Shown here: positions 22,424 to 55,072 of the stretch, one piece after another | How the letters are laid out: each line of letters begins with the position of its first letter | Position numbering within the stretch: position 1 is the first letter of the stretch | IMG/VR virus record: IMGVR_UViG_3300045988_098116 | Location: 1-64,000 of that record | Length of the DNA: 64,000 nucleotides | Strand: one strand, 5' to 3' | Source: a virus | Translations under genes and position numbers: made by a program | Notes under the pieces: model-generated | What the model was told of the DNA's origin: nothing | What the model saw: only the letters and a program-made list of their open reading frames with translations | Databases searched by the model: none

Positions 22424-22514
22424 ATGTCTCGCCTCCACCCTTCCACAAGCGAAGCGAAACACTTATCCGCCAGCACCGCACGGGCGCCGTCTAAATCTTA
22501 TTATAGACGCCGCC

Positions 22515-22550
22515 CCTGCGAAAGTCAACAGCTTTCTGCAGGGGATTTTT
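22515..22550 (+). terminator. Hairpin plus T-tract terminator
   Basis: CCTGCGAAAG-TCAACAG-CTTTCTGCAGG followed by GGATTTTT. Confidence 0.55.
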
Positions 22551-22580
22551 GCGCTCATTTTTGGAAATCCACCCTCGGAA

Positions 22581-22603
22581 TCCCTTGACACGGCGTATAG
22601 TAT
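22581..22603 (+). promoter_or_regulatory. TCCCTTGACACGG box followed by TAGTAT
   Basis: Exact 13-mer, about 40 nt upstream of the antirepressor start. Confidence 0.55.
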
Positions 22604-22642
22604 GCTGACTACCAAAGATAAACCGAAAGGAGATTTTCACAG

Positions 22643-23455
22643 ATGAACGACCTCGTGACCATCGGCAACACCCAGTTCACTGCCAAGACGCTGGACGGCA
22701 AGCCTGTTCTCACCTTCCATGACATCGACGCCATCCACCACCGTCCCGAAGGAAGCGCCAGAAAGCGCTTCAACGACAACCGTCAGAGGTTTGTAGAGGG
22801 CGAGGACTACATGAAAATTTGCGCGTCCGAATTTCGGACGCACTTCGATGGACTTTCCAGCAAGGCCACCGAGGACGTATACCTTCTTACCGAGTCCGGC
22901 TACCTGATGATCGTCAAGTCCTTCACCGACGATTGGGCCTGGGAGGTACAGCGTCGCTTGGTCAAGACCTATTTCCGCGCCAAGGAGCTGGCTGCCGAAA
23001 AGCCCAAGCCTATGTCTACCAATGATTTGTTTGAGCTGCAGGTAAAAATCAACCGCGAGTACGAGAACAAGATCAATGCGCTGGAGGAACGCGCCGAAAG
23101 CGCCGACCGCAAAATCAGCACCATCACCGACGTGTTCGCTGCCCCTCCCACCGACGAGGAACGCTGGCGTGACGTGATGAACCGCAAGGTACGCACCATG
23201 TGCGAGGAGTACGGTCTGAACTACCACACCACCATCGGTGAGATGTACGCCGAGTTGGAGCGCCGTGCCCATGTTAATCTCTCCGTCCGGCAGAAGAACC
23301 TCCGTGAACGTATGCGTCTCGGCGGCGCGAAGTACGCCCAGCGGGAAGCCGTCAGCAAACTGGTGGTCATCTCCCAGGATGCAAAACTTCGTTACATCTA
23401 CGAGGCTATTGTCCGCGAGAAGGGCGCCCAACTTGCCGCCTCCCGTATGCACTGA
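22643..23455 (+). CDS. phage antirepressor-like protein (ORF6N / ORF6C domains)
   Basis: N-terminal ...RKRFNDNRQRFVEGEDYMKI...LLTESGYLMIVKSFTDDWAWEVQRRLVKTYF matches the ORF6N pattern. GAAAGGAGA RBS. Confidence 0.7.
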   Translation: MNDLVTIGNTQFTAKTLDGKPVLTFHDIDAIHHRPEGSARKRFNDNRQRFVEGEDYMKICASEFRTHFDGLSSKATEDVYLLTESGYLMIVKSFTDDWAWEVQRRLVKTYFRAKELAAEKPKPMSTNDLFELQVKINREYENKINALEERAESADRKISTITDVFAAPPTDEERWRDVMNRKVRTMCEEYGLNYHTTIGEMYAELERRAHVNLSVRQKNLRERMRLGGAKYAQREAVSKLVVISQDAKLRYIYEAIVREKGAQLAASRMH

Positions 23456-23516
23456 TTACACATTATATACCCACATTCACATCATACACCATTTATACAG
23501 CAGGAGGAAATTTATC

Positions 23517-23735
23517 ATGACAGTCCTTGAAGCGTGCGCCATGCTGGAGCTTGGCGACGGTATCAAACCCAATATTGAACTCACATTCGGCTCTTGCGGC
23601 GTTCCGTTCAACCCACAAAACGGCCTTGAGATGATGGCCTACGGCGATTTCCTCATCGAAACTTGCCACGTCTGGGAGGGCGGTGTCAACCTCGTCCTCA
23701 AGCAGCAGTTCTGCAAAAAGAACTGGAACGCATAA
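23517..23735 (+). CDS. small hypothetical protein (72 aa)
   Basis: CAGGAGGAAA RBS. In frame with track ORF 23238-23735. Confidence 0.55.
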   Translation: MTVLEACAMLELGDGIKPNIELTFGSCGVPFNPQNGLEMMAYGDFLIETCHVWEGGVNLVLKQQFCKKNWNA

Positions 23736-23747
23736 GGAGGGCACAGC

Positions 23748-23912
23748 ATGATCCCCTCCAACATCAATTTGGGCGATACCGTCACCCGCCGCATCGAGGC
23801 CACAGACCGCAAGGCCACCGGAACAGTCGTTTACATCCACCCGGAGGGCCGCTACTACACCGCCGAATTTGACCTCGGTCTCTACAAAATCCGCGAGTCC
23901 TTCAACACCTGA
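23748..23912 (+). CDS. small hypothetical protein (54 aa)
   Basis: Hand-translated. TAAGGAGGG RBS. Confidence 0.5.
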   Translation: MIPSNINLGDTVTRRIEATDRKATGTVVYIHPEGRYYTAEFDLGLYKIRESFNT

Positions 23913-23938
23913 AAATTCTTTCAAAAACTTTCAGAAGT

Positions 23939-23962
23939 TCCCTTGACACGGGGCGCATACTT
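23939..23962 (+). promoter_or_regulatory. TCCCTTGACACGG box followed by ATACTT, heading the tRNA/ncRNA locus
   Basis: Exact 13-mer. No ORF follows for about 1.5 kb. Confidence 0.55.
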
Positions 23963-24169
23963 AAAATTGCCGAAGGGGAGACCCCTTCCCCGACGGCTTC
24001 GGTGTACCCCCCGAATTATATAAGCCCTTCCGTAAGAAAGGCTGCACCGGTCTTACATCCATTCTTCCGGTGTTCCCAGCGCAATTCTGGCAGGAACGCG
24101 GTCACGGGGGCGCAAGCCCCTCTGTCGCACGTCAGCTCGCCCACCAGGACGTAAACAAGGTGGGGGTCC

Positions 24170-24245
24170 GGTGTCGTAGCTCAGCTGGCAGAGCAGCTCA
24201 TTCGTAATGAGCAGGTCGTGGGTCCGATCCCCACCGATACCTCCA
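24170..24245 (+). tRNA. tRNA-Thr(CGT): tRNA-Thr (anticodon CGT), CCA encoded
   Basis: Hand-folded cloverleaf: GGTGTCG/CGATACC acceptor, GCTC/GAGC D stem, GCTCA-TTCGTAA-TGAGC anticodon arm, GTGGG-TCCGATC-CCCAC T arm. The T loop is TCC rather than TTC. Confidence 0.8.
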
Positions 24246-24419
24246 ATTCTACGTGGACACCGCGAGTGACGAGCGTATAGCGGAACAGCCGTATGGGTGA
24301 TGCGAAGTCCTGAAGTAAGCCCCTCAAGCCTCGATGTTGTAATTGCGCCTGTGATCTGCTGGCAAAAGCGAGGCACGGAAAAGATCTGGCGGCTCGGAAA
24401 GACGAGCAACCCCCTCAAT

Positions 24420-24510
24420 GCAGATGTACCTCAGCCGTGGAAGAGGGTCTGATCGTAGCGTAAAGCGCGAGCTCGGAAAGTCGCAGGTTCGAATCCTGCC
24501 GTCTGCACCA
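24420..24510 (+). ncRNA. tRNA-like element (91 nt) lacking a normal anticodon loop
   Basis: Has the acceptor (GCAGATG/CGTCTGC plus ACCA), U8, a D arm (CCTC..GG..GAGG) and a T arm (GCAGG-TTCGAAT-CCTGC). The anticodon-stem position (TCTGA/TCGGA) encloses 20 nt that fold into GCGT-AAA-GCGC. Confidence 0.55.
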
Positions 24511-24836
24511 TAGGCGTGACCTCTTGCCTCGCAGCCGCACGGAGCGTAAGCCTGCGGAAGTGGTCTTTCCTGTGCGCTGTACGAAAGCGGCAGGACGAAG
24601 TAATTTATGTATTGGCTGGCACCGGCTTTGTAAAGATGAACGGATGCGACCGACGTACCGGCGCAGGGCTGAAAAGTTCCGTGGTTGGTTCGGGTGCCGG
24701 CGTGTGCGGCGAAAATCCGAGGCGATAACCTATAGATGTGGAAGCGGCGTGGTGGCGGCTGTCTTTGGACAAGGCCGCCGTGTAGGTCAGTAGCCATCCG
24801 CACCGGCACCCCGCCAACTGTGTCCCCGCAAAATTT

Positions 24837-24913
24837 GCAGCGTTAGTGTTCAACGGTCAGCACACCAGCCTTCCAAGCTGGGAGTGGCGGTTCGAATCCG
24901 CTACGCTGCTCCA
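24837..24913 (+). tRNA. tRNA-Gly(TCC): tRNA-Gly (anticodon TCC), CCA encoded
   Basis: GCAGCGT/ACGCTGC acceptor, CCAGC-CTTCCAA-GCTGG anticodon arm, GGCGG-TTCGAAT-CCGCT T arm. Confidence 0.8.
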
Positions 24914-25083
24914 TGCCCGCCTGATGGATGACTTCCCCCGTCAGGAATGAAACCTCCGCATCTGGCAGCGGTGTCGCCGGGTCGAACCAGCCGGTAGCAT
25001 GATTTGGGCGTGACAGCGAACGAAGGACGCCCCACCCCATCGGGGAGGCGGGCATCCCCCAGCCCGTCCTCCCCACTCTCTAC

Positions 25084-25231
25084 GCAGGAGCGCCGTTGGG
25101 GCGCTTGCACGGCACACACAGAGATCTCCTTTCTGCTGCTGTTGTTCGGACACATCAACACCTCCAATGTTCATGTTCTATTTTCCGTGCGCCGGCAAGC
25201 CATGCGGGTTCGACTCCCGCCTCCTGCTCCA
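25084..25231 (+). ncRNA. tRNA-like element (148 nt) with a 72-nt insertion in place of the anticodon loop
   Basis: GCAGGAG/CTCCTGC acceptor plus TCCA and GCGGG-TTCGACT-CCCGC T arm. The GCACGG (25107-12) / CCGTGC (25185-90) helix encloses a lower-GC insert. The D region is a CGCC-GTTGG-GGCG hairpin without U8/A14. Confidence 0.5.
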
Positions 25232-25404
25232 TCGGACGCGATAGGCGTCCGCGGTCCAGATAGGACCTCCTTTATAAATGCTGCGGCTGTAAGAAGCAGC
25301 ACCGGGTTTTGTTCATTTTCCCCGGCTCCTGTTGGAATACAGGCAGGCCAAGCGATTTCTCCTTCCGGGCGGCGCGGTCTGGGCAGCCCGCCGCCCAACC
25401 CCCT

Positions 25405-25480
25405 GGGGGATTAGCTCAATCGGCAGAGCAGGCCGCTCATAACGGCCCGGTTCCGGGTTCAAGTCCCCGATCCCCCACCA
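25405..25480 (+). tRNA. tRNA-Met(CAT): tRNA with CAT anticodon (Met, or Ile2 if lysidinylated), CCA encoded
   Basis: GGGGGAT/ATCCCCC acceptor, GCTC/GAGC D stem, GGCCG-CTCATAA-CGGCC anticodon arm, T arm with one mismatch. Confidence 0.8.
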
Positions 25481-25538
25481 GCCGCAAGGCGATAAAACGT
25501 TTCAGTCTGAAATCTACAACAGAAAGGAGGCACATTCC

Positions 25539-25814
25539 ATGACCAAGAGCGAGTTTATTTCTACTCTGGCAGCAGCGACCGACATGAAGAAGTCCGACGT
25601 CGAGCGCGTGATCGCCGCCGCTGCCAACACCCTTACCGGCGTCATGCGCTCCGGCGACAGCGTGAATATCTCCGGCTTCGGCATCTTCACCAGCAAAGTC
25701 CGCGACGCGCACCCCGGTAAGAACCCCGCTACCGGCGAGGCCATCACCGTCCCCGCTAAGCGCGTGGCCATCTTCAAGCCCGCAAAACAGCTCAAGGATG
25801 CCGTCAACAGCTGA
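25539..25814 (+). CDS. hup: HU/IHF-family histone-like DNA-binding protein
   Basis: MTKSEFISTLA...GDSVNISGFGIFTSKVRDAHPGKNPATGEAITVPAKRVAIFKPAKQLKDAVN. GAAAGGAGG RBS. Confidence 0.9.
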   Translation: MTKSEFISTLAAATDMKKSDVERVIAAAANTLTGVMRSGDSVNISGFGIFTSKVRDAHPGKNPATGEAITVPAKRVAIFKPAKQLKDAVNS

Positions 25815-25854
25815 CGGCGCAGGGCCGTACCCACACAAAATATCCCACATTACG

Positions 25855-25889
25855 AGCCGGACGGCACACCGCCCTCCGGCTTGTTTTGT
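25855..25889 (+). terminator. Rho-independent terminator after hup
   Basis: AGCCGGA-loop-TCCGGCT followed by TGTTTTGT. Confidence 0.6.
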
Positions 25890-25895
25890 AAACTA

Positions 25896-25919
25896 TATTT
25901 CCGTTGCGTTTTGAATATT
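25896..25919 (+). repeat. 24-nt element TATTTCCGTTGCGTTTTGAATATT (copy 1), 3 nt upstream of a TATAAT
   Basis: Identical 24-mer at 49101-49124. TATAAT at 25923-25928. Confidence 0.7.
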
Positions 25920-25959
25920 TCCTATAATCCACACACAAACCACGAAAGGAGTAATTCCC

Positions 25960-27015
25960 ATGATCTACTTCGACAACGCCGCCACCACACCGGTGCTTCC
26001 CTGCGCGTGGGAGGCCATGCAAGCCGCGCCGGAGGCAAACCCATCCAGCAGCCACGCCGCAGGGCGTGAGGCAAAAGCCGCGCTGGAAAACGCCCGCGCC
26101 GCCATCGCCCGGTGCCTCAACTGTGCTCCCTGCGAGGTCTACTTTACCTCCGGCGCCACGGAAAGCTGCAACTGGATGGTCAAATGTCTCCGCATAGAGA
26201 CAGACAGCATCATCTACAACGACACCGTTCACCACGCCGTCAGCGGGGGCATCCACGCCTATTCTTCCCCCAATGCGCCCCGCGGAAAGCCCTCCGCCGT
26301 CCTTTCTCTCGTCAACAATGAAACCGGGCAGATATGCGATGTGGACGCTTTCTGCCGCAAAAACCGTCCGCACCGCATCGGCATAGACGCCACCGCCGCC
26401 GTAGGCCACATCCCCGTGGACTTCAAGGCGCTGGGTGCGGACTACATGGCTTTCGGCGGCCACAAGTTCGGTTCCCTCAAGGGCATAGGCGCGTTGATTG
26501 TCAAGGAGGGGTGTCCCATCGCCCCCATGATCTTCGGCGGCGCACAGGAGCGCGGTATGCGCGGCGGCACGGTCTCCGTCCCCCTTGTCAGCTCTATGGC
26601 CGCCGCCCTCACCTGGCGCTCCCTCCACATGGAGGAAAACGAGAAAGCTATCCGCGCCGTCGCTCAAGAGCTTATCATTTCCCTTGGTTGCCACCGTGTG
26701 GATTTCGACATCAATCTGCCCGGCGGCAAAAGCAGCAAGGATTGCGCTCCCCACATCCTCTCCATCCGTTTTCCCGGCGTCTACGGCGCTGCCCTCGCCG
26801 CCGCCCTCAGCGTAAACGGCGTCATGGTGTCTACCGGCTCCGCCTGTTCCTCCGGCGACAACGCCGCCTCCGCCAACCTCATGGCCAGCGGCCTTACCGA
26901 GCAGGAGGCACTGGAGACCATCCGCTTCTCCTTCGACTGGTACAACACCACCGCCGAGGCATCCGAGGCCGCCGGCATCATCGCCGATATTGTCCCCACA
27001 CTCCGTCGCGGCTAA
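25960..27015 (+). CDS. cysteine desulfurase (NifS/IscS-like, aminotransferase class V)
   Basis: MIYFDNAATTP, GGHKFGSLKGIG (PLP lysine), SACSSG (catalytic Cys). GAAAGGAG RBS. Confidence 0.85.
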   Translation: MIYFDNAATTPVLPCAWEAMQAAPEANPSSSHAAGREAKAALENARAAIARCLNCAPCEVYFTSGATESCNWMVKCLRIETDSIIYNDTVHHAVSGGIHAYSSPNAPRGKPSAVLSLVNNETGQICDVDAFCRKNRPHRIGIDATAAVGHIPVDFKALGADYMAFGGHKFGSLKGIGALIVKEGCPIAPMIFGGAQERGMRGGTVSVPLVSSMAAALTWRSLHMEENEKAIRAVAQELIISLGCHRVDFDINLPGGKSSKDCAPHILSIRFPGVYGAALAAALSVNGVMVSTGSACSSGDNAASANLMASGLTEQEALETIRFSFDWYNTTAEASEAAGIIADIVPTLRRG

Positions 27016-27039
27016 ATTTTGAAAATTTTTTCAAATCCC

Positions 27040-27069
27040 TTGCACAAAATCCGCATTTGCCGGTAGACT
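27040..27069 (+). promoter_or_regulatory. Promoter-like TTGCAC-N18-TAGACT preceded by TCCC and an A/T inverted repeat
   Basis: TCCCTTGCAC resembles the box. Shares TGCCGGTAGACTATA with 13579-13593. Confidence 0.45.
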
Positions 27070-27104
27070 ATACTATGACAAAATTCTGTAAGGAGGACAC
27101 CACC

Positions 27105-27389
27105 ATGTCTATCAGCCCTGAAAAACTCAAGCAGTACATCTCCCTCAAGGAAGCGGCCCTCACCCTGCGCCCCGACTTCGCCGTGGACTTCAACGATCCC
27201 AAACCCGAAAGCGAAGCCGCCACAGTCTCCGTTGTGCTCCATACGCCGTTCATCGGTCTGGACAGGACAAAAACCGCCATCGCTTCCCTGTTCACATTCT
27301 GCGACACGTTCATTGTCGCCGACAGCGATGTGATCCACAATATCGTCCGCTTCACCTTTGGCGTGGACGGTATGCAGAAGGAGGAATGA
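27105..27389 (+). CDS. hypothetical protein (94 aa)
   Basis: TAAGGAGGA RBS. In frame with the tail of track ORF 26334-27389. Confidence 0.6.
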   Translation: MSISPEKLKQYISLKEAALTLRPDFAVDFNDPKPESEAATVSVVLHTPFIGLDRTKTAIASLFTFCDTFIVADSDVIHNIVRFTFGVDGMQKEE

Positions 27390-27393
27390 CCCC

Positions 27394-27567
27394 ATGCTCG
27401 TCACCAACGTGATAAAGCGCGAATACCCCTTCACCGTCCGCCGCAAGCGGGACGGCGAGATTATGACCATGCTCATCACCGCCGAAAGTGAGTCCGCCGC
27501 CCGTCTGCTGCTTCCCGACACCGTGGAGCTGGTGGGACCACGCGAACCCCACAGGAAGGAGGAATGA
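27394..27567 (+). CDS. small hypothetical protein (57 aa)
   Basis: GGAGGAA RBS. Confidence 0.5.
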   Translation: MLVTNVIKREYPFTVRRKRDGEIMTMLITAESESAARLLLPDTVELVGPREPHRKEE

Positions 27568-27574
27568 CCCCATT

Positions 27575-28576
27575 ATGCCAAGACCCGCCCCTCAAATCAT
27601 TGGGAAAAAGTTTGGACACCTTACCGTCGTCAAAAAAGCCGAAGAAAAAGGCCGTACAAGATACCTTTGCCAGTGCGATTGTGGCAACAGCGTCGAGGTC
27701 TTTGCATCGAGCATTATAAGTGGTCACACGAAAAGCTGTGGCTGTATAAAGCGCGATCAGCCTGCGCATAACTTCTTCGATATTACCGGGATGAAGTTCG
27801 GGCACCTCCATGTGCAAGGTGTCGACCACAAATTTAACGGGAGGGTTTATTATAAATGTCTGTGCGACTGTGGGAAAGAAATCGTTGTTCTCGGAAACTC
27901 TTTGAAGCGTGGTGCTACACACAGTTGTGGATGCGCACGATCTCAGGCGATTTCAAAAAAAATACGCACACACGGCGAGTCCTCCACACGGTTATTCCGG
28001 GTTTGGACCGGCATGAAAAACCGATGCTATAACAAAAACGAGCCGTCCTACCAGAATTATGGCGCTCGCGGAATCGGTGTATGCTCGGAATGGTTAAACA
28101 GCTATGAAGCGTTCCGAGACTGGGCTTTAGCAAACGGCTACGACGAAAATGCGCCCTACGGGGAATGTACGCTTGACCGAATTGACACAAACGGAGATTA
28201 CTCTCCGGGGAATTGCCGTTGGGCAGATCTTACAGTTCAGGCCAACAATAAGACTACCAGCCACTTTATTGACTTTCGCGGTGAGCGCCATACCATAGCA
28301 GAGTGGAGCAAAATTTTGGGCATCCCAAAGCATATTATAAACACTGGGCTCCGTGCCGGTAAGCCTTTTTCGGAAATCATTGAGCTACCACATATTAGGA
28401 GAACCTATATAACACTTGGTGGAAAGACTCTCTCTATTTCGGCATGGGAACGCGAAATGAATCTTGCGCAAAAAACTATTTCGCGGCGATTAAAGCAAGG
28501 GTGGAGCGCCGAGGATGCAATATTAACACCCTCAGCCAAAAAGAAAAAGGAGTGTGCAAAAAATGGGCAGAAGTAG
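27575..28576 (+). CDS. DNA-binding protein with duplicated CxCxCG zinc modules and an AP2/HNH-associated-like domain
   Basis: Two FGHL..V...CxCDCG...SCGC repeats, then LDRIDTNGDYSPGNCRWA. AGGAGGAA RBS. Visibly lower GC than its neighbours. Confidence 0.6.
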   Translation: MPRPAPQIIGKKFGHLTVVKKAEEKGRTRYLCQCDCGNSVEVFASSIISGHTKSCGCIKRDQPAHNFFDITGMKFGHLHVQGVDHKFNGRVYYKCLCDCGKEIVVLGNSLKRGATHSCGCARSQAISKKIRTHGESSTRLFRVWTGMKNRCYNKNEPSYQNYGARGIGVCSEWLNSYEAFRDWALANGYDENAPYGECTLDRIDTNGDYSPGNCRWADLTVQANNKTTSHFIDFRGERHTIAEWSKILGIPKHIINTGLRAGKPFSEIIELPHIRRTYITLGGKTLSISAWEREMNLAQKTISRRLKQGWSAEDAILTPSAKKKKECAKNGQK

Positions 28577-29606
28577 CCGTGCAGAAATGAAATTGTGCCA
28601 AGCAACAGATTCCTACATCAAAAACTGCGCCGCCACCGGCGCTTCTCCCCGCACCGTCGAGGCGTACACCGCCACGCTGGAGAACTTCGTCAACTTCTTC
28701 ATCGAGTCCAAAGAGAATTACGCCGACCCCTCCTACGCCACCATCCTTTTGTGGCGCGACAACCTGATCGACAGCGGCTGCAGCAACTACACCGTCGCCC
28801 TCTACGTCAACCGGCTCCGCACCTTTTTCGACTACGCCAGCGACCCCGAGTGCGGCGGCTGGTACGCCAACAATCCTGTCTCCCGTCGCCTGACGCCCGA
28901 CACCCGCAAGACCGCCCGTCGTCCCTACGATGTGCTTCTCACCGACCAGCAGGTGATGAAGCTTTGGCGCAACGACAAGCCCGCCACCGCCAAGGCGAAA
29001 ACATGGCCCCGGAATTACGCCATCGTCATCATGCTTCTAACCACCGAGCTCCGCAACGCCGAGCTTCTGGACCTCACCCCGGCGGATCTCCACTGGGAGG
29101 ACGGCGAACTCTCCGTCGAGAGCGGCAAGGGCAGTAAGTTCCGCCGCATCGAATTTCCCGACATCGCCCAGTCCGCCGTCCGTATCTATCTGGCCAGCGG
29201 CATCCGCCCGAAGGATCTTCCCGACACAGCGCCCCTGTTCGGCAATACCGCGCCAAAGGGTTCCTTCGGTCCCCGCACCGGCGATGAGAACCGCGAGTGG
29301 CAGCGCGGCTCTCGTCAGTGGCTCTCCACCCTTGTGGAATCCCACGTCAGGGCAGTCACCGGCGTTCCCGACATCCGCAGCCACGACCTGCGCCATGTAG
29401 GCGCCCGCATCGACCTCAACGCCGGTATGAAGCAGGAGGAGCTTCAGTCCAAGCTGGGTCACACCAATCCCAACGTTACCCAGCGCTATTCAGGCCGTCT
29501 GCTTTCCCGCACCGGCAAGCGCTCCGCCGCCCTCGTTCTCGAAGCCCGTGAGCGTCAGGCGGACATCAATGCCAACATTTTGGCCGGGAGGGTACAAAAT
29601 GCGTAA
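28563..29606 (+). CDS. int: tyrosine recombinase / phage integrase
   Basis: C-terminal HDLRHVGAR...LGHTNPNVTQRY, and an N-terminal SAM-like core-binding domain (TVEAYTATLENF). ATG at 28563 with AAGGAG RBS; the track start at 28554 is GTG. Confidence 0.85.
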   Translation: MGRSSRAEMKLCQATDSYIKNCAATGASPRTVEAYTATLENFVNFFIESKENYADPSYATILLWRDNLIDSGCSNYTVALYVNRLRTFFDYASDPECGGWYANNPVSRRLTPDTRKTARRPYDVLLTDQQVMKLWRNDKPATAKAKTWPRNYAIVIMLLTTELRNAELLDLTPADLHWEDGELSVESGKGSKFRRIEFPDIAQSAVRIYLASGIRPKDLPDTAPLFGNTAPKGSFGPRTGDENREWQRGSRQWLSTLVESHVRAVTGVPDIRSHDLRHVGARIDLNAGMKQEELQSKLGHTNPNVTQRYSGRLLSRTGKRSAALVLEARERQADINANILAGRVQNA

Positions 29607-29828: not shown

Positions 29829-29875
29829 AAGCCCCCTGTGACACTCTGTGCGCCGCAGGGGGCTTATTTTTATTT
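29829..29875. terminator. Bidirectional hairpin between the convergent int and endolysin genes
   Basis: AAGCCCCCTG-N17-CAGGGGGCTT with a T-run on the plus side. Confidence 0.55.
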
Positions 29876-29915
29876 CTCCGGTCGTTTTTGTCCTATCGCC
29901 TTATGCGCTCCGCGG

Positions 29916-31190
29916 TCACTTCACGATCTCCCACGTGCCGCTTTTCCCGTCCGCGCTCCGCGTCACCTTCACGGTGTACGTTTCGGTCACGGCCGGCTGT
30001 TCCGGTGTCTCCGGCTGTTCCGGCTCCTGCGGCTTTTCCGGCTCCACATATTCCAGCCCGCAGAACTCGCACAGCGCCTTGCAGTCCGCCACAGCGCAAT
30101 CCTCCATGTGCTCGTGGAACCACGCCGCGTCCTCCGGGTTGTCGTGGTACACGTGCTCCTGGTACACGGCGTAAGCGTTGGTGTCGTCCAGCTCGTGCAG
30201 GTCGCTCCGCGTCGCGGTCCGGCAGCCGTGGGGGTAGATGGCCTTGCGGTACTTCACCATCAGCTCTGCCAGCTTCTTCCCGTTGGCGCTGCTGGGGTGG
30301 TACATGGACAAAAATCCCTTTACCGTGCCGTGCCCGGTGGGGCCGTTGGTGCTGCCGTTGGTGTGGGACACATAGTGCACCTTTGCGCCCCACTCGTTGC
30401 TCTCCTTGATGGCGCGGTACATATAGTCCGGGCCGTACTCGTCGCTCATGGGCGTCCGGCGGGGACCGCGCATGATGTCAAAGCCGCACCGCTCCAGCAT
30501 GGGCTGCAAAATATCCAGAAACTCATTGTTTTCGAGAGTTTCAAAACATTGCTGGCCATCGGGACGCTTATAGCAGCACTGGTTGGCCTTGTGGTACGCC
30601 GGGGACAGATAGATCTTCGGCTTCTCCGCCGGCGCGTCCTCGTCGCTCTCCTGATAATCCGGGTAGCCGAAGGTGTACGAGGACTTCACGCTGGCGTACT
30701 CCTTCTCGTACACGCCGCCGCCGTTGACCACCACGCCGCTCTGCGGGCTGGTGTTGCCCTCTATGGTGCGGAAGCCCTTGCCCACGATCTCCGTCACAAT
30801 GCCCGTGTGATCGTCGCCGAAGAATACCTGTGCGCCCACCTTCGGCGTAGTGCCCAGCTGCCCCGCAGCCTTGAAGTACCGCTTCAGGTAGTACACGCCC
30901 GCGCCCAGACTGTCATCCGGCAGGTTCTGCAGCCGCTTCGCCTCTGCTACGCCGAACGCCTGCACGTTCACCCACGCCACGAACGTGGTGCACCACGGGT
31001 ATCCCTGCTTTTTCCCGTTGTAGAAATGGGGGATGGCGTCAATGTCCCGTGCGTACTTCGTGAAGTTCTTGTCCCCTGCGTTGGCGGTCTTGCTGTCGAG
31101 ATAGTGTGTCTCCGGCGTGTCGTTGGAAGCCTTCTCAAGATAGCCCAGCTCCTCCCGGGCTATCTTGATGACCTTACTGGCGCCGTTCAT
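29916..31190 (-). CDS. endolysin: CHAP peptidase plus N-acetylmuramoyl-L-alanine amidase, with a C-terminal extension
   Basis: CHAP-like GYPWCTTFVAW...GDDHTGIV...IEGNT. Amidase-like YLSPAYH...HYVSHTNG...VYQEHVYHDN. Overlap-coupled to the holin. Confidence 0.85.
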   Translation of the reverse strand: MNGASKVIKIAREELGYLEKASNDTPETHYLDSKTANAGDKNFTKYARDIDAIPHFYNGKKQGYPWCTTFVAWVNVQAFGVAEAKRLQNLPDDSLGAGVYYLKRYFKAAGQLGTTPKVGAQVFFGDDHTGIVTEIVGKGFRTIEGNTSPQSGVVVNGGGVYEKEYASVKSSYTFGYPDYQESDEDAPAEKPKIYLSPAYHKANQCCYKRPDGQQCFETLENNEFLDILQPMLERCGFDIMRGPRRTPMSDEYGPDYMYRAIKESNEWGAKVHYVSHTNGSTNGPTGHGTVKGFLSMYHPSSANGKKLAELMVKYRKAIYPHGCRTATRSDLHELDDTNAYAVYQEHVYHDNPEDAAWFHEHMEDCAVADCKALCEFCGLEYVEPEKPQEPEQPETPEQPAVTETYTVKVTRSADGKSGTWEIVK

Positions 31191-31408
31191 GCTGCTTCCC
31201 CCAGGTCCTTCTCCTTCTTATAGCTGGCGCTGGAAATGCCCAGCACAGCACCGAGGAAAACGGTGATGCAGGAGATGGTGCTCACGATCTGCTCCGCATA
31301 GGGCCAGCCCCAGATACCGGCCAGACCGGAGTACAGCGCCGCAATAGCGGGCAGCACGATGATAACGCACCACTTGATGATGTCATACATACGATTGCTC
31401 AGCTTCAT
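31187..31408 (-). CDS. holin
   Basis: 73 aa, two hydrophobic helices and a charged C-terminus, immediately upstream of the endolysin. Confidence 0.75.
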   Translation of the reverse strand: MKLSNRMYDIIKWCVIIVLPAIAALYSGLAGIWGWPYAEQIVSTISCITVFLGAVLGISSASYKKEKDLGEAA

Positions 31409-31427
31409 AGTTACTTCCTTTCCGGCT

Positions 31428-31736
31428 TTACGCCTCTCGCTTGATGGGCAGCTTCCTTACTTCCTCCATGACCCGTTTTGCACTGCCGTTGCCGCCCATC
31501 TTTTCATACGGCTGGTACAGATAGTCATTGAGGTTTTCGTACTCATCCTGCGTGACGTACCCTCTCGTCACGTACACCATGCCAAGATGGATGATGCGGT
31601 CATGCGCCAGACCCACCAGCATCTTCCGCTCCGCGTTGTTCTTGTCCGCACGCTTCGATACCAGTGCCCACAAACCGCTGCTTGTCAGCACCGCTACCGC
31701 CAGCGGTACGGCGATCTGCTGTACCCACGGTTCCAT
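31428..31736 (-). CDS. membrane-anchored hypothetical protein (lysis-cassette associated)
   Basis: N-terminal TM IAVPLAVAVLTSSGLWALV. Position next to the holin. Confidence 0.6.
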   Translation of the reverse strand: MEPWVQQIAVPLAVAVLTSSGLWALVSKRADKNNAERKMLVGLAHDRIIHLGMVYVTRGYVTQDEYENLNDYLYQPYEKMGGNGSAKRVMEEVRKLPIKREA

Positions 31737-31838
31737 TCGCCGCGTTCTCCTCTCAAATTATTTTTGCACCCTCGACACCCTTCGACCGTTTCTGACACGC
31801 CACCTGTGCTATCCTGCTTGCAGAAAGGAGGTGTTCCC

Positions 31839-31964
31839 ATGCCCGAGTATTTCACCCTGTTCAACGCCGTCACCGACGCCATTGCCCAGCTTGAAAAGGC
31901 CGTTGCCGCACTTAAACAGGCACAGATCCGTGCCGAGGAAGCCTACATCCAGCGGGGGGAGTAA
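31839..31964 (+). CDS. small plus-strand ORF (41 aa, MPEYFTLFNAVTDAIAQLEKAV...)
   Basis: Strong GAAAGGAGGTG RBS 6 nt upstream. Sits alone on the opposite strand inside the late region. Confidence 0.45.
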   Translation: MPEYFTLFNAVTDAIAQLEKAVAALKQAQIRAEEAYIQRGE

Positions 31965-37796: not shown

Positions 37797-39071
37797 TTAT
37801 GTCTTTGTCTCCGTTTTCAGCGGCCACACCGTCACCGTCGCCACCGGGAAGTCCGCCACGCTGGTGGCGGATATGGTCATTTGCCCCTCTCCTGTCAGCG
37901 GGCGGGAAAAGCCGGTGATGAGATGCCGCTCCGTGGGGCTCCCCTGCTTGTCCCGGCGCACCAGCGTCACAAGCTCGTTCTCCTTAATGTGAAAGATCTG
38001 CCCGCAGCTGATGTCCACGCTCTTCTGCAGCACCGTGGACCGCTTTAGCTCCCACTCTGCCCTGTCCCGGCACATGGTCTCCGTTGCGTAGCCGCTCTCC
38101 TCCGCCCACACCGTCTTGCGGCCTATCAGCTGCACGTTGGTATCGCTCATGGGGTCGTTGTTGGTGGCTCTCGCCCCCGGCTGGCTGTTGTCGTCCAGCG
38201 CCGCCCCCAGCACGATGTAGTCGTTGTACACCTCGGTGTTTTGCGCCGTGTATGTCATGCCCAGCAGCGTCGCCTCCCCCATCGAGAAGGCGTAGCTGAC
38301 GGGCTTTTCACTGTCCAGCAGGTCGTCCTGGCTGGGGTCTATCCGCAGCCGTCCCGTGGCGTCGTAGCCGATCCATGCGTTCAGCATCTCCGCAAAGCCC
38401 AGTATCACCTCCGCGTATGTGCCGCTTCCCGGATCCACCTCCAGCGTGTACGGCGCGTCCACCAGGTTTACTTCCGTGCCGTCCGTCAGCTTCTGCTTCT
38501 TGCCGTTGTAATACTCCGTGTACACCGGGGGGATGGGGTCCACCTTCCGCCCGTTTCCCTTGTCGTCCTGCAGCAGGGCGTTGATCTGCTGAAAGATGTT
38601 CACGTTCAGCTTTCCCTTATAGGTGCCCTCCAGCTTGCCCCACAGCGTCCCGTCCAGATTGGCCCACTTGTCCACCAGCTCGTACTGCATCAGCCGCCGT
38701 CCCGGCTCCACCGTTTCCTGCGGACTCTGTATCAGGAAAACGCCCTGCTGTATGTAGTAGTCCTCGCCGTTTGGCAGCACCAGCCCCTCGTCCAGCGCGA
38801 TCTCCTGCCCGAACCACAGGTGGTTTACGTTGTAGTCGAACGCGCCGTCCACGTTCCCCAGCATCACACTGGCCGTTCGCCTTACCCCGTTTTGCAAATT
38901 CACCGTCAGCGCCCCGTCCGCAACAAAGGCGCCGCTGTGCTTATTTCGCGGGTTATTGTCCACGAAGAACGCCGTGCTCCCGTCCGGGTTCAGAAAGCGC
39001 AGCCGGCACAGCTTCTGAAACCGGCCCTTCAGCGCTCTCAGGTACGCCAGATATTTCTCCTGCTCCGTCAT
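37797..39071 (-). CDS. tail/baseplate structural protein (424 aa)
   Basis: Synteny downstream of the tape measure. Confidence 0.65.
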   Translation of the reverse strand: MTEQEKYLAYLRALKGRFQKLCRLRFLNPDGSTAFFVDNNPRNKHSGAFVADGALTVNLQNGVRRTASVMLGNVDGAFDYNVNHLWFGQEIALDEGLVLPNGEDYYIQQGVFLIQSPQETVEPGRRLMQYELVDKWANLDGTLWGKLEGTYKGKLNVNIFQQINALLQDDKGNGRKVDPIPPVYTEYYNGKKQKLTDGTEVNLVDAPYTLEVDPGSGTYAEVILGFAEMLNAWIGYDATGRLRIDPSQDDLLDSEKPVSYAFSMGEATLLGMTYTAQNTEVYNDYIVLGAALDDNSQPGARATNNDPMSDTNVQLIGRKTVWAEESGYATETMCRDRAEWELKRSTVLQKSVDISCGQIFHIKENELVTLVRRDKQGSPTERHLITGFSRPLTGEGQMTISATSVADFPVATVTVWPLKTETKT

Positions 39072-39087
39072 GGCACGTGCCCTCCGT

Positions 39088-39291
39088 TCAGCTGCGCTTA
39101 CGCTTCTTCCTGTCCTCCGCCGCCGTCAGCGCGTCGCACTCCTCGTCCGTGGCCGCCCTGATCTTCCGTATATCCGGGTTTCCCTTGCGGTACTGGCTTT
39201 CACGGGTGATGTAGTACCGTCCCGTGATGCCCGTTATCGGTATTTCTCTGCCGCTTTTCATCACCAGGATGTGCCGTGTCTTTTTCGCCAT
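39088..39291 (-). CDS. small hypothetical protein
   Basis: ATG at 39291 (MAKKTRHIL) with GAAAGGA RBS. The track start at 39312 is GTG. Confidence 0.5.
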   Translation of the reverse strand: MAKKTRHILVMKSGREIPITGITGRYYITRESQYRKGNPDIRKIRAATDEECDALTAAEDRKKRKRS

Positions 39292-39308
39292 AGTCCAGCC
39301 GTCCTTTC

Positions 39309-39614
39309 TCACATATTCCGTCCGTCCGCATACATGAAAACCATGTGGTTCCCTGCGTTCTTCCCCTCGCCGAATACCAGCACCACCACCTGCGCCCCCA
39401 CCGGGGCCGCCGCCATCGTGCTCACATAGGGGAGAAAGCTCTCCGTTTCGTCAAAGGGGCGTTTTACGCCGATTTTCCCGTCTGCCGCCGCGGTCGTCAC
39501 CTGCGCCCGGTACTGCCGTACCATATCCGTCTGCGTCTCCCGTACCCGCCGCACATAAAAGTTGTCCCACAACCGCTTTGCCAGCTCCGCCAGCGTCTTT
39601 GCGTTCTCGTCCAT
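39309..39614 (-). CDS. hypothetical tail protein
   Basis: 101-aa ORF immediately after the tape measure. Confidence 0.6.
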   Translation of the reverse strand: MDENAKTLAELAKRLWDNFYVRRVRETQTDMVRQYRAQVTTAAADGKIGVKRPFDETESFLPYVSTMAAAPVGAQVVVLVFGEGKNAGNHMVFMYADGRNM

Positions 39615-39618
39615 GCTT

Positions 39619-42600: not shown

Positions 42601-43749
42601 CACGGCGTTTTTGTTGGTGATCTCGTTCAGGCCGTCCATGACGGTCATCAATTCGCTTTCGCTGCCGTTCAGTTTCCACGCCGCGTCTACCGCAAGCAGG
42701 AACTTTGCGGCGGTGTCCTGCGAAATATCACCGATGTTTGCCAGCAGAGTGCCCAGCTCCGCCATGCTGTCCAACTGGTCATCCAGATAACCCGCACGAG
42801 CGAAGGTGGTGTACATGGCGGTTATCTCATCCGCCGTCCTGCCGTATGCGCTGGCGAGACTGTAAGCGTTCTCCTCCAGCTCCTTCATCTGCGTGTTGGA
42901 GTAGTCCGTGACCTTCTGCACGTTGACCATTTCCGTATCAACGTCCTTGAGGGTATTTATCGCCTCGCGAAAAGATCCAATCACCTTGGAGATCATGTCG
43001 CCGAATATCTGCCACGCGGCCATTTTCAGCAGGACTCTGCCAATACTGTCGCCCAGCAGCGAGTTTTTCTTCGCCGCATCCACCGCGCCGTTAGCCAGTT
43101 TGTACACTTCGCCGGTGCTCTCATTGATGGCAAAGGTGAAGTTGTCAGTCGTGCCTTTGGCTCCGTTTACCGCCGCAGAATAGGTCTGGAATACGCCCGC
43201 CGCGTTCCGCACGTTGCCGGTCGCTTTGACCGTTGCGCCGGACATTCCATCCAGCGAAGCTATCCACTCCTTGGCCTCCGCCGCATTGCCGCTGAACGTT
43301 CCGATGTTGGTTCCCATTGAACCGAGAACGTTCTGTATCTTCTGCGCTTCCGCTGCGGCTCTGTTCGCTTCAGCGTCCTGCGCTTTCTGTGCCGCCTCCT
43401 GTGCTTTTGCCTGTACCTGTGCGGCACGTTCAGCAGCCTTCGCCACCTTTTCGTAGTTCTGGGTGACTTTCTCCTGCGTGACTTCCAGATTTCCGGTTTC
43501 CTTGTTCAGCCGCCGCGTAACCTGTACCGTTTCGCCAAGTTTGCTGTTGTACTGCTGCACAGCTCCCGTCAGCTGTCCGCCACCATCGAAGGTCTGCGTC
43601 ATCTTGGAGAGGTTTTGCGATGTGGCTTTTATCTTTGCTATGACCGGCGTAGTGTCTATGTCGATCTTTATGGGTGTAGACTCCAGCCCGGAGATCGCGC
43701 TTTTCAGTTCAGTAAAGTCGGGCTTTGCCGTTACCTTAAAAATCGCCAT
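39619..43749 (-). CDS. tail tape measure protein (1376 aa)
   Basis: Length, long alpha-helical/coiled-coil composition, internal hydrophobic segment and Gly-rich C-terminal region. ACGGAGGT RBS. Confidence 0.9.
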   Translation of the reverse strand: MAIFKVTAKPDFTELKSAISGLESTPIKIDIDTTPVIAKIKATSQNLSKMTQTFDGGGQLTGAVQQYNSKLGETVQVTRRLNKETGNLEVTQEKVTQNYEKVAKAAERAAQVQAKAQEAAQKAQDAEANRAAAEAQKIQNVLGSMGTNIGTFSGNAAEAKEWIASLDGMSGATVKATGNVRNAAGVFQTYSAAVNGAKGTTDNFTFAINESTGEVYKLANGAVDAAKKNSLLGDSIGRVLLKMAAWQIFGDMISKVIGSFREAINTLKDVDTEMVNVQKVTDYSNTQMKELEENAYSLASAYGRTADEITAMYTTFARAGYLDDQLDSMAELGTLLANIGDISQDTAAKFLLAVDAAWKLNGSESELMTVMDGLNEITNKNAVDMEALTSGITVAGSVFAEAGESVQTFSALVGAGVAATQRSGSEISRGLRTIVMNIRQIKGETEDGELIDGESIAKASNALREYAGISTMANGQLRESSAVLSDLAGKWDTLDTVAQSAIAEALAGKRQANILTALMGNWDTVEKMMQDYADGAGSALRENEIYLDSWEAKSKQLTASWTEFVSHLVETDTIKGALDGVIGLVEMLDTDFGRAVVTAGAVSAALVGVVAAINAIKKAATALSLGSLNPWVLGIMAAGAAIGVVLEVVKASQKSIADFDAEIADANDKLQTNKTRLEEINAMPWNERTSEILNEKAALEKENEELEKQLDLLDEERKKKADKETGDNFIFHTGEYKTEEEFVGTVTPVTVTTEITRSGENAYKVATEQLKAFANQLDKTGEIADEQRAHFDSMNAEIATQVEWLRVLEANGESLTDEQKNMIAAYEELQQAFDRAVNGQELLVEAYNKVAQSTALTESEYQRLISLYPQLASAATQTADGYIIQKTALENLMSAEVRQQAESQRVVNGLLAEAQQAGYTGKALYDLVAAQITASKTNLNFSQQIAALQALGYQAGLTAAQMNAVFGTNMSSADQVRNRERTIQAYMQQGMGRKQAEAKYLSEMQRYLSWSIGNTTSKVTSGGGGYGGGSSGSSAAKKKYQDEIDALEKQRDAELAAIDAQINALKKQNEEIDRAEKLEELRLEVMRKQDALLNARNERTVRMYNAESGQWEWIADPEKVKQAEEDLADAKKDLRDYEREMELDLAIEELEARKKAIEAAYQLKIDALEEYINALRETVEQEKIILEDEVAANEKAAAKIAAARAAAAAGAVGGAAAGALGGGSEKSPAADSALSGVIAGAIGGSVGKSSVVSGSIIGAVSGGRKKKYDSGGVLHGLGGIKATVDDEMVLPPDVTAKMLKPSADARFRARVNELGGLYGETPVSRSVAGDSDNRSYSDHSGPTYNVKGITLTEQQAEHLTVAQMCRMAHNVKPYGG

Positions 43750-55012: not shown

Positions 55013-55072
55013 GTATGGGGCTTGCGCCCCCATAAACTCCCTTTCGGGCGAAAACGATCCAACGTTTTCATC

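What the first reader, a model, noticed from the sequence alone, without database searches (positions are those of the whole stretch)
24420..24510. tRNA-like element with acceptor, D and T arms but an anticodon loop replaced by a 20-nt hairpin
The 91-nt element has a 7-bp acceptor stem (GCAGATG/CGTCTGC, one G-U pair), discriminator A plus CCA, U8, a D arm with GG and A21, a 5-nt variable loop, and a perfect GCAGG-TTCGAAT-CCTGC T arm. At the anticodon-stem position, TCTGA (24448-52) pairs with TCGGA (24473-77). That helix encloses 20 nt (TCGTAGCGTAAAGCGCGAGC) that fold into GCGT-AAA-GCGC rather than a 7-nt loop with U33. It therefore cannot decode as drawn. Possibilities, all inference: a tRNA with a short intervening sequence, an anticodon-less decoy or processing signal, or a degenerate pseudogene.
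Basis: seen in the sequence. Interest (0 to 1): 0.65.

Follow-up and report, generated by a model that had tools for sequence, protein, structure and literature searches.

The report
Anticodon-less tRNA mimic fused to new phage RNA
The odd "tRNA" is real but cannot decode: it is one allele of a family of tRNA-shaped modules in gut phages whose anticodon arm varies freely, and which always sit directly in front of an undescribed ~310-nt structured RNA.

Summary
The 91-nt element at 24420-24510 is exactly as described. Rfam's tRNA model scores it 47.5 bits by skipping 19 nt in the anticodon loop; ARAGORN rejects it by default. It is not an isolated oddity. In more than 150 gut-phage and metagenome loci (host probably Oscillospiraceae), a tRNA or tRNA-shaped module ending in NCCA directly abuts a conserved, non-coding, covarying RNA of about 310 nt (window 24511 to about 24816) that has no Rfam match. 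In these modules the acceptor, D and T stems are kept by compensatory changes. The region between the D and T stems ranges from 19 to 44 nt, against 23 nt in a normal tRNA. The window's 36-nt version occurs in 19 copies, always with the 20-nt insert. Some homologues carry near-normal Asn, Trp or Thr tRNAs at this position, and the window family looks like a former tRNA-Thr(CGU).

Best reading: a non-decoding tRNA mimic kept for its shape. It most likely serves as an RNase P / 3'-end processing handle that excises the neighbouring structured RNA from the tRNA-island transcript. A trans-acting decoy is the main rival. The intron-containing tRNA and decaying pseudogene readings are disfavoured. 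Function is inferred, not shown.

The parts
24386..24419 (+). Leader module: hairpin GCTCG-GAAAGA-CGAGC, a C-rich tract, then AAT ending at U(-1). It precedes the tRNA-like element.
   Evidence: The same leader precedes each tRNA-like copy in related loci. The hairpin covaries to GCCGG-GAAAGA-CCGGC in L027, L031 and L041. It is also shared with distant phages L009, L016, L020 and L036.
24420..24510 (+). 91-nt non-decoding tRNA-shaped module: acceptor 24420-26/24500-06, D arm 24429-46, T arm 24483-99, A73 24507, CCA 24508-10.
   Evidence: Rfam tRNA 47.5 bits. ARAGORN default makes no call. 19 copies of this allele exist. The arms covary across the family.
24448..24477 (+). Expanded 'anticodon' arm: TCTGA / TCGGA enclosing the 20-nt insert 24453-24472. 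The predicted fold is an irregular helix of about 11 bp capped by GUAAA.
   Evidence: Fold (z = -1.0, not significant on its own). The insert is always 20 nt in 19 copies, with two fold-neutral variants. There is no second or complementary copy in the window.
24511..24816 (+). Conserved two-domain structured non-coding RNA (the 'block'). It starts at the base after CCA. In window coordinates the helices are P1 24524-27/24681-84, P3 24568-78/24586-95, P5 24645-52/24659-65, P7 24691-98/24805-12 and P9 24754-63/24768-79. A less conserved tail runs to 24836.
   Evidence: nhmmer profile hit 24509-24814, E = 3.5e-82, and a single copy per locus in 150 loci. RNAalifold on 46 sequences under 93% identical gives 59 pairs, 17 with compensatory double changes. 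No codon periodicity and no preserved frame. No Rfam family matches.
24837..24913 (+). tRNA-Gly(TCC), which bounds the block on its 3' side.
   Evidence: ARAGORN and Rfam at 42.1 bits. In other phages the block is followed by a Gln-TTG-like tRNA or by another tRNA-like module.
24170..24245 (+). Genuine tRNA-Thr(CGT), the first gene of the island and a likely paralogue of the ancestor of the tRNA-like family.
   Evidence: ARAGORN and Rfam at 61.8 bits. It shares the unusual T arm GTGGG-TCCGA(T/G)C-CCCAC with the Thr-like family member in L014.
25405..25480 (+). tRNA-Met(CAT), the last gene of the tRNA island.
   Evidence: ARAGORN and Rfam at 59 bits.

Best explanation
The element is a tRNA-shaped RNA that no longer decodes. 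It probably descends from a phage tRNA-Thr(CGU) paralogue. It keeps everything that tRNA-maturation enzymes read: U at -1, a 7-bp acceptor helix, A73-CCA, a canonical T arm, and a D arm with G18G19, so the elbow is intact. Its anticodon arm is under no sequence or length constraint, and in this allele it has grown into a 30-nt hairpin.

Proposed mechanism (inferred, not shown): the tRNA island is transcribed as one precursor. RNase P cuts at 24419/24420. 3'-end maturation at the encoded CCA releases the 5' end of the ~310-nt structured RNA that begins at 24511. RNase P cleavage at tRNA-Gly (24837) sets that RNA's 3' side. The module would then act as tRNA punctuation, and possibly as a nuclease-resistant cap, for a new phage non-coding RNA. 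The released CCA-ended mimic would be a by-product or a secondary player.

Shown here: the shape conservation, the free anticodon arm, the obligate junction with the block, and the RNA nature of the block. Inferred: the cleavages and their purpose.
For: (1) In 133 parsed loci with 77 distinct partner sequences, the block is preceded without a spacer by a module with a 7-bp acceptor-type helix (7/7 pairs in almost all). Among 38 distinct canonical-T-loop partners, the tail is ACCA in 31 and N(-1) is U in 34.
(2) Acceptor, D and T stems are 99.5% paired. 10 of 16 pairs show compensatory double changes, and 0 of 500 shuffles reach this.
(3) The D-to-T central region is 19-21 nt in 22 distinct elements, 23-25 in 8, 29-30 in 3, 36 in the window type, and 44 in one. 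A normal tRNA has 23. Many loops lack U33.
(4) The partner can be a near-canonical tRNA: Asn-GTT in L137 at 67 bits, Trp-CCA types, and Thr-CGT-like in L014 and L058. It can also be a four-way junction with no tRNA sequence signature (z = -3.0). What is required is therefore a tRNA shape, not an anticodon.
(5) The block is also followed by a tRNA or tRNA-like module in the window and in L080, L081, L092, L105 and L109.
(6) From the literature: RNase P measures the acceptor/T-stem stack and the elbow, not the anticodon arm (PMC4919913). A bacterial tRNA-like domain with a 7-bp acceptor stem (M. smegmatis YrlA) is cleaved by RNase P and receives CCA (PMC4201824).
Against: There are no expression or RNA-end data. 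The window-type allele also occurs detached from the block, followed by a ~140-nt spacer and a second tRNA-like element (L027, L031, L144, L149, L153, L154), so it is not only a handle for the block. A mere handle would not obviously need a full D arm, nor would it show such allele turnover among 95-98% identical phages. In Firmicutes, precursors with an encoded CCA are trimmed by exonucleases rather than cut precisely (from memory), so a defined 5' end for the block is not guaranteed. The arms alignment used was preselected for pairing.
Confidence: 0.45

Rival explanations
1. Trans-acting tRNA mimic or decoy. The released CCA-ended, anticodon-less RNA would bind and titrate a host factor that reads the acceptor end or elbow of tRNAs. 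Candidates include a defence toxin that modifies or cuts tRNA 3' ends or acceptor stems, a synthetase, or a modification enzyme. Allele turnover would reflect an arms race.
For: Near-identical phages (95-98% identical flanks) carry four different alleles of 73, 73, 82 and 91 nt at the same site. Relatives hold arrays of several anticodon-less tRNA-likes, not all next to the block (L027, L032, L041, L024). The acceptor sequence GCAGAYG/A73/CCA is constant within the family. The element sits in a phage tRNA island, and phage tRNAs have been proposed as counter-measures to tRNA-targeting defences (from memory).
Against: Known anticodon nucleases need the anticodon loop (from memory), which is exactly what is missing or variable here. 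No candidate target was identified. The partner of the block can be an ordinary tRNA. The allele turnover can be explained by unequal recombination between tandem copies that share leaders and acceptor ends.
Confidence: 0.25
2. The tRNA-like module is an integral, uncleaved domain of one larger RNA (module plus block, about 400 nt). This would resemble the tRNA-like domain of tmRNA or YrlA, or the tRNAs linked within GOLLD.
For: There is no spacer between CCA and the block in all loci. L083's partner is recognised by the tmRNA model's tRNA-like domain at 31 bits, below the threshold of 47. GOLLD can carry covalently linked tRNAs (PMC12286853).
Against: Partner type and block variant assort independently. 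The first ~15 nt of the block are unpaired in the consensus. The window allele also exists without an adjacent block. An internal CCA has no obvious role.
Confidence: 0.12
3. Neutral relic: a duplicated tRNA-Thr gene that lost its anticodon and persists without function.
For: Homologues at this position include near-normal tRNAs. The family shows anticodon loops with A33 or C33, deletions and insertions, as expected after loss of decoding. All copies of the window allele come from closely related phages, so their identity could reflect recent ancestry.
Against: Decay is confined to one arm. The other three stems are essentially always paired, with compensatory changes, across 23-77 distinct sequences. 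The tertiary-interaction nucleotides, U(-1) and CCA are all kept.
Confidence: 0.08
4. A decoding tRNA whose anticodon loop carries a 13-nt intervening sequence that is removed to give a functional tRNA.
For: ARAGORN with the intron option reports tRNA-Tyr(GTA) with a 13-nt intron. The insert begins TCGTA, which resembles a Thr-CGU loop.
Against: The spliced loop would have C33. A bacterial tRNA-Tyr is class II with a long variable arm, which is absent here. The fold has 1-nt and 2-nt bulges, not a bulge-helix-bulge motif. 13-20 nt is far too short for a group I intron, and Rfam finds none. The host is probably a bacterium. Sister alleles have arms shorter than a normal anticodon arm.
Confidence: 0.03
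5. A DNA-level feature: an attP or recombination site derived from a host tRNA gene and used by the nearby tyrosine integrase (28554-29606).
For: The phage is temperate. Distant phages share DNA starting in the T arm (24480) and running downstream, as attP cores in tRNA genes often do.
Against: The complete 5' half of the cloverleaf is present. The shared downstream DNA shows RNA-type covariation, not simple identity. The ends are constant and the middle is variable, which is the opposite of a crossover pattern. The element lies about 4 kb from the integrase, inside a tRNA island.
Confidence: 0.03

Closest known systems
YrlA-type bacterial Y RNAs (tRNA-like domain; PMC4201824)
   Same: Both are non-decoding RNAs that mimic the acceptor, D and T arms of tRNA, and both are found in bacteria and phages. 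M. smegmatis YrlA has a 7-bp acceptor stem, is cut by RNase P and gains CCA.
   Different: In YrlA the RNA's own 5' and 3' ends form a Ro60/Rsr-binding stem. Here the ends are at the acceptor stem, as in a real tRNA, with CCA encoded. No Rfam Y RNA or YrlA hit was found, and no Rsr gene was seen among the ORFs scanned.
tmRNA tRNA-like domain
   Same: Both have an acceptor stem, a T arm and ACCA with no anticodon. One partner type (L083) is weakly recognised by the tmRNA model.
   Different: The element has no G3:U70 (it has A3-U70), no mRNA-like reading frame and no pseudoknot ring. It retains a full D arm. ARAGORN finds no tmRNA.
GOLLD and ROOL large phage RNAs (PMC12286853, PMC5737381)
   Same: These are large, ornate, covarying RNAs of unknown function encoded by phages and prophages, often in or beside tRNA islands. 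GOLLD sometimes has tRNAs covalently linked.
   Different: There is no match to either Rfam model. The block is smaller, about 310 nt against about 580 and over 800. Here the link to an upstream tRNA or tRNA-like module is obligatory and has no spacer.
mascRNA / MALAT1-type tRNA-like processing signals and mitochondrial tRNA punctuation (from memory)
   Same: A tRNA-shaped element with a non-functional anticodon arm is recognised by RNase P and 3'-end enzymes, and this defines the ends of a neighbouring RNA.
   Different: Those are eukaryotic or organellar systems. In MALAT1 the tRNA-like lies 3' of the long RNA. No bacterial or phage example of this kind is known to me.
Viral tRNA-like structures lacking an anticodon, such as the BMV TLS (PMC9976931)
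   Same: A viral tRNA mimic with a short pseudo-anticodon loop that is still read by tRNA enzymes.
   Different: Those sit at the 3' end of an RNA virus genome with a pseudoknotted acceptor. This one is a true cloverleaf gene in a DNA phage.

Membership tests
Decoding tRNA (RF00005) | Cloverleaf with a 7-bp acceptor stem, a 5-bp T stem with a TΨC-type loop, and a D arm with G18G19 | tested here: met
   Read directly from the sequence. Rfam scores 47.5 bits against a threshold of 29.
Decoding tRNA (RF00005) | 7-nt anticodon loop with U33 and a purine at 37 | tested here: not met
   The loop is 20 nt. No 7-nt reading yields U33. ARAGORN default makes no call.
Decoding tRNA (RF00005) | Aminoacylation and use on the ribosome | not testable with these tools
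   G1-C72, C2-G71 and A73 fit the Thr acceptor identity, but the anticodon determinants are absent (PMC9976931).
Intron-containing tRNA (archaeal bulge-helix-bulge or bacterial group I) | A bulge-helix-bulge motif at the splice sites, or a group I ribozyme core of at least ~200 nt in the anticodon loop | tested here: not met
   The fold has 1-nt and 2-nt bulges only. The insert is 20 nt. Rfam finds no intron family at E <= 5. ARAGORN -i makes only a formal call with C33.
tmRNA | tRNA-like domain with G3:U70, a tag reading frame and pseudoknots | tested here: not met
   ARAGORN finds no tmRNA. The pair is A3-U70. No reading frame is conserved in the block. Rfam tmRNA does not hit the window.
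YrlA / bacterial Y RNA | Ro60/Rsr-binding stem formed by the RNA termini, with an rsr gene nearby | tested here: not met
   No Rfam Y RNA hit. The termini form the acceptor stem. No Ro60/TROVE protein appeared among the ~30 window ORFs scanned (Pfam only on the 10 ORFs; PHROGs). The ORF set was incomplete.
ROOL / GOLLD | Match to the family covariance model | tested here: not met
   No hit in the window region at E <= 5, nor in 13 divergent loci at the gathering threshold.
ROOL / GOLLD | Phage-encoded large structured RNA in or next to tRNA islands | tested here: met
   This is a similarity of context only.
RNase P substrate / tRNA-like processing signal | 12-bp acceptor plus T-stem stack, intact elbow, RCCA 3' tail, and U(-1) | tested here: met
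   These are sequence features only.
RNase P substrate / tRNA-like processing signal | Actual cleavage at -1/+1 and release of flanking RNAs | not testable with these tools
   This needs an in vitro RNase P assay or RNA-end mapping.

The most novel reading that the evidence does not exclude
The tRNA-shaped module and the ~310-nt RNA together define a new, widespread class of phage RNA system in human-gut Oscillospiraceae phages. An ornate non-coding RNA would depend on an upstream tRNA or tRNA mimic, which would be its maturation signal, built-in ligand or substrate. The anticodon-less mimics may themselves form a fast-evolving family of decoys aimed at host factors that read tRNA acceptor ends. 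The block could even be a ribozyme or a self-assembling RNA acting on, or with, the tRNA 3' end.
Probability: 0.25. Interest if true: 0.85.

Novelty: new variant of a known kind. Interest (0 to 1): 0.68.

Why it matters
Phage tRNA islands are usually read as codon-usage or counter-defence cargo. This locus shows that some of their "tRNAs" are kept for shape alone, and that they are tied to a large structured RNA absent from Rfam 15 and from the literature I could search.

It gives ROOL and GOLLD, two unexplained phage RNAs that also sit in tRNA islands, a third and smaller companion. This one has a much tighter and therefore more testable link to tRNA: a junction with no spacer, a partner that can be swapped, and natural alleles ranging from real tRNAs to bare four-way junctions.

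It also warns annotators. ARAGORN labels family members Gly, Ile, Arg, Thr or Tyr-with-intron, and none of those labels is believable.

Tried and rejected
- **Coding block:** rejected. Variable columns fall 42/51/53 across the three codon phases, and no frame is preserved.
- **Known RNA family for the block or element beyond tRNA:** none found in Rfam, either for window 22500-27500 at E <= 5 or for 13 divergent loci.
- **tmRNA:** rejected, apart from a weak hit to the tRNA-like domain in L083.
- **Guide RNA idea:** the 20-nt insert has no similar or complementary site elsewhere in the window, with up to 3 mismatches allowed.
- **Correlation between anticodon-arm type and block variant (kissing or co-folding):** none seen.
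- **Conserved protein partner within ±8 kb:** none shared across loci. Only spurious ORFs over the RNA cluster together.
- **Second copy of the block in the window, for example beside the Trp/Asn tRNAs:** none.
- **Promoter and terminator scan of 23400-26100:** no promoter-like site and one weak terminator-like site, below the shuffle expectation.
- **Annotated phages:** only two unannotated faecal contigs match.
- **Literature:** seven full-text searches found no description. The supplements of the large phage structured-RNA survey are not held, and one 2026 preprint could not be opened.
- **Terminase or portal homologues of the small phages:** not found in the window.
- **Covariance model of the whole block:** not built, because the alignment (425 columns) exceeds the 400-column limit. 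An nhmmer profile was used instead.

Full report
**1. The observation**

- a 7-bp acceptor stem GCAGATG/CGTCTGC with one U.G pair
- U8
- a D arm CCTC-AGCCGTGGAA-GAGG containing GG and A21
- a 5-bp helix TCTGA/TCGGA enclosing 20 nt
- a 5-nt variable loop
- a perfect GCAGG-TTCGAAT-CCTGC T arm
- A73 and CCA

Rfam's tRNA model accepts it at 47.5 bits (threshold 29; E = 4.9e-7) by treating 19 nt of the anticodon loop as an insertion. ARAGORN with default settings does not call it.

The element lies in a tRNA island: Thr-CGT 24170-24245, the element, Gly-TCC 24837-24913, Met-CAT 25405-25480.

RNAfold instead extends the anticodon stem under a GUAAA loop, and the arm alone is not more stable than shuffled sequence (z = -1.0).

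**2. Whose genome this is**

The window is a temperate tailed phage. The features identified are:
- anti-repressor, 22643-23455
- class-V aminotransferase, 25960-27015
- HNH endonuclease, 27488-28576
- tyrosine integrase, 28554-29606
- tape measure protein, portal and tail genes on the minus strand

It is 95% identical to an unannotated human-faecal contig, MT835520. A conserved motif from this locus occurs in Oscillospiraceae and Oscillibacter MAG contigs. Together with the 58% G+C, this suggests that host group. The MAG contigs could themselves be binned phage DNA, so the host is an inference.

**3. The element is one allele of a family**

A 20-nt pattern spanning the 3' acceptor strand and the following bases found 42 viral contigs. 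All share the acceptor GCAGACG/CGTCTGC, A73, CCA, and normal D and T arms. The region where the anticodon arm belongs differs in both sequence and length, giving elements of 73, 77, 78, 82 and 91 nt.

Phages whose flanks are 95-98% identical to the window differ precisely in 24414-24485, the body of the element.

ARAGORN assigns the alleles it accepts to Gly-CCC, Ile-AAT, Arg-CCG, Thr-CGT or '???'. None of these fits the constant acceptor identity.

**4. What lies downstream**

From the base after CCA to about 24816, the DNA is conserved even in phages that share nothing else with the window. It is not a gene. Variable columns fall 42/51/53 over the three codon phases, and no reading frame is preserved.

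It is a structured RNA. On 46 sequences under 93% identical, RNAalifold finds 59 pairs, 17 of them with compensatory double changes. These include a long-range helix (window 24691-98 with 24805-12) that covaries at almost every position, and a hairpin (24754-63 with 24768-79) seen in three compensated versions.

No Rfam family matches it, in the window at E <= 5 or in 13 divergent loci. A profile of it hits once in the window (E = 3.5e-82) and once in each of 150 loci.

**5. What precedes the block, without my first pattern's bias**

In 133 parsed loci (77 distinct sequences), the block is always preceded, without a spacer, by a module that closes with a 7-bp acceptor-type helix and an NCCA tail (ACA or ACAA in a few).

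The modules span a wide range:
- near-canonical tRNAs: Asn-GTT in L137 (67 bits), Trp-CCA types, and Thr-CGT-like genes with a bulged A in L014 and L058
- the GCAGACG family, with truncated or expanded arms
- a 112-nt form that the tmRNA model recognises through its tRNA-like domain (L083)
- a 92-nt four-way junction with GNRA-capped arms and no tRNA sequence signature (z = -3.0)

Partner type and block variant assort independently.

**6. The conservation pattern**

Across 23 distinct arm sets, the acceptor, D and T stems are 99.5% paired. 10 of 16 pairs show changes on both sides, and none of 500 shuffles reaches this. These sequences were preselected for pairing, but 7/7 acceptor pairs is the rule in the unfiltered parse.

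In contrast, the D-to-T region varies widely. A normal tRNA has 23 nt.

| D-to-T length (nt) | Distinct elements |
|---|---|
| 19-21 | 22 |
| 23-25 | 8 |
| 29-30 | 3 |
| 36 (window type) | 2 |
| 44 | 1 |

Seven-nt loops, where present, often have A33 or C33. N(-1) is U in 34 of 38 distinct partners, and the tail is ACCA in 31 of 38.

So selection holds the acceptor/T-stem stack, the elbow and the 3' end, and ignores the anticodon arm.

**7. The window's own allele**

Viral and metagenome scans found 19 copies. All have a 20-nt insert: 15 are identical, three have T9->C and one has C2->T. Both changes are neutral for the predicted hairpin. No copy has a 7-nt loop.

The allele occurs directly before the block (as in the window). 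It also occurs before a ~140-nt spacer and a second, 73-nt tRNA-like that carries the block (L027, L031 and others). Each copy has the same leader: a hairpin that covaries, then a C-rich tract. The window arrangement can be derived from the tandem one by deletion between the repeated ...CGTCTGCACCA ends.

The insert starts TCGTA. Family members L014 and L058 have CTTCGTGAG loops. L014 shares the unusual TCCGA T-loop with the window's genuine tRNA-Thr(CGT), and G1-C72/C2-G71 fit Thr acceptor identity (PMC9976931). The family therefore probably descends from a tRNA-Thr(CGU) paralogue. This is an inference.

**8. Position in the genome**

In the smaller, distant phages, the unit lies just upstream of a terS-like gene, terL and portal. 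Further conserved hairpins run to the ribosome-binding site of the first packaging gene. In the window it lies inside the tRNA island, at the head of a plus-strand gene run.

In the window and in L080, L092, L105 and L109, a tRNA also follows the block. In L081 another tRNA-like module follows it.

No protein family is shared by all loci within ±8 kb. This suggests the RNA works alone or with host factors.

**9. How it most likely works**

RNase P measures the acceptor/T-stem stack and the elbow, not the anticodon arm (PMC4919913). A bacterial tRNA-like domain with a 7-bp acceptor stem is cut by RNase P and receives CCA (PMC4201824). The conserved features here are exactly that set.

I therefore propose that the element is a non-decoding tRNA mimic that acts as punctuation. 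RNase P would cut at 24419/24420, 3' maturation at CCA would free the structured RNA that begins at 24511, and RNase P cleavage at tRNA-Gly would bound it. Confidence is 0.45. The cleavages are inferred.

The main rival, at 0.25, is a trans-acting decoy for a host factor that reads tRNA acceptor ends. It is favoured by the allele turnover and by arrays of several anticodon-less tRNA-likes in relatives. It is weakened by the lack of any target and by the fact that ordinary tRNAs can fill the same slot.

The other rivals are:
- an uncleaved domain of a ~400-nt RNA (0.12)
- a neutral relic (0.08)
- an intron-containing tRNA (0.03): ARAGORN -i gives only a formal Tyr-GTA with a 13-nt intron and C33, there is no bulge-helix-bulge motif, and the host is probably bacterial
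- an attP-type DNA site (0.03)

**10. Comparison with known systems, and novelty**

The element resembles the following, without belonging to any of them:
- YrlA Y RNAs
- the tmRNA tRNA-like domain
- viral tRNA-like structures that lack an anticodon
- eukaryotic mascRNA-type processing signals

The block shares its context with ROOL and GOLLD (phage RNAs near tRNA islands; PMC12286853) but matches neither model. Seven literature searches found no description.

I rate the element a new variant of a known kind (tRNA mimics). The block is probably a new RNA family. What either RNA does for the phage remains unknown.

Noticed in passing
window 24246-24385: The spacer between tRNA-Thr and the leader hairpin is conserved in close relatives (L027, L032). 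It contains GCGAGTGACG...GAAG, a motif that also occurs inside the 92-nt non-cloverleaf partner type (…AGCGAGTGACGGGG…CCCCGAAGCGCT…). Small GC-clamped hairpins with GUAA, GUAUA or GUAAA loops recur in the spacer, the insert and the block.
   Followed up: no
window 24914-25404: The 490-nt gap between tRNA-Gly and tRNA-Met has no convincing gene and is variable. L001 lacks about 25043-25261, and L024 carries an extra ARAGORN 'tRNA-???' with a 2-nt anticodon there. One weak terminator-like hairpin lies at 25253-25267.
   Followed up: partly
L032 4532-4604 (-), L041 372-451, L024 3223-3294: Close relatives hold further aberrant tRNA-like genes in the same island. One has a 13-nt arm (GTGA-CGCGA-TCAC) and no CCA. 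Others are called by ARAGORN with 4-nt or 2-nt 'anticodons'. The island is an array of non-canonical tRNA-likes.
   Followed up: partly
window 25960-27015 (+): A class-V aminotransferase (cysteine-desulfurase-like; Pfam PF00266, E = 1.7e-45) lies just downstream of the tRNA island. Enzymes of this family supply sulfur for tRNA thiolation, so a link to the island is conceivable. None was tested.
   Followed up: no
window 54937-55147 (-): A tRNA-Trp(CCA) and tRNA-Asn(GTT) pair sits inside the structural gene module. In other phages, Trp- and Asn-type tRNAs are the direct partners of the block. No block copy lies next to this pair.
   Followed up: yes
window 24837-24913: tRNA-Gly(TCC) aligns to the Rfam model only over positions 3-68, at 42 bits, and has an unusual D arm (GTGT-TCAACGGTCA-GCAC). 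ARAGORN accepts it.
   Followed up: no
L002 ~3340-3450 and many small-phage loci: Between the block and the first packaging gene lie further conserved hairpins (for example GCCCAATATGGGC and GCCCTTCGGGGC), then GGGTAAAGTCTGCTATGTAAGGCCAAGGGGCGGGGGCTGGTAGCAAAA running up to an AGGAGG ribosome-binding site. These could be a leader or regulatory extension of the RNA.
   Followed up: no
window 27488-29606 (+): The HNH endonuclease ORF (27488-28576) and the tyrosine integrase ORF (28554-29606) overlap by 23 nt. The 461-aa ORF 29838-31223 has no Pfam or PHROG match, and the 201-aa ORF 31359-31964 has no PHROG match (it was not scanned against Pfam).
   Followed up: no
window 44179-45111 (+): A GIY-YIG-type homing endonuclease gene lies on the opposite strand, just beyond the minus-strand tail and tape-measure genes (37797-43749).
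   Followed up: no
L143 (CAZIQF010000008.1): A contig binned as 'Staphylococcaceae' carries a block 90% identical to the window's. This is probably a binning error or a phage contig, and it is a caution for the host assignment.
   Followed up: no
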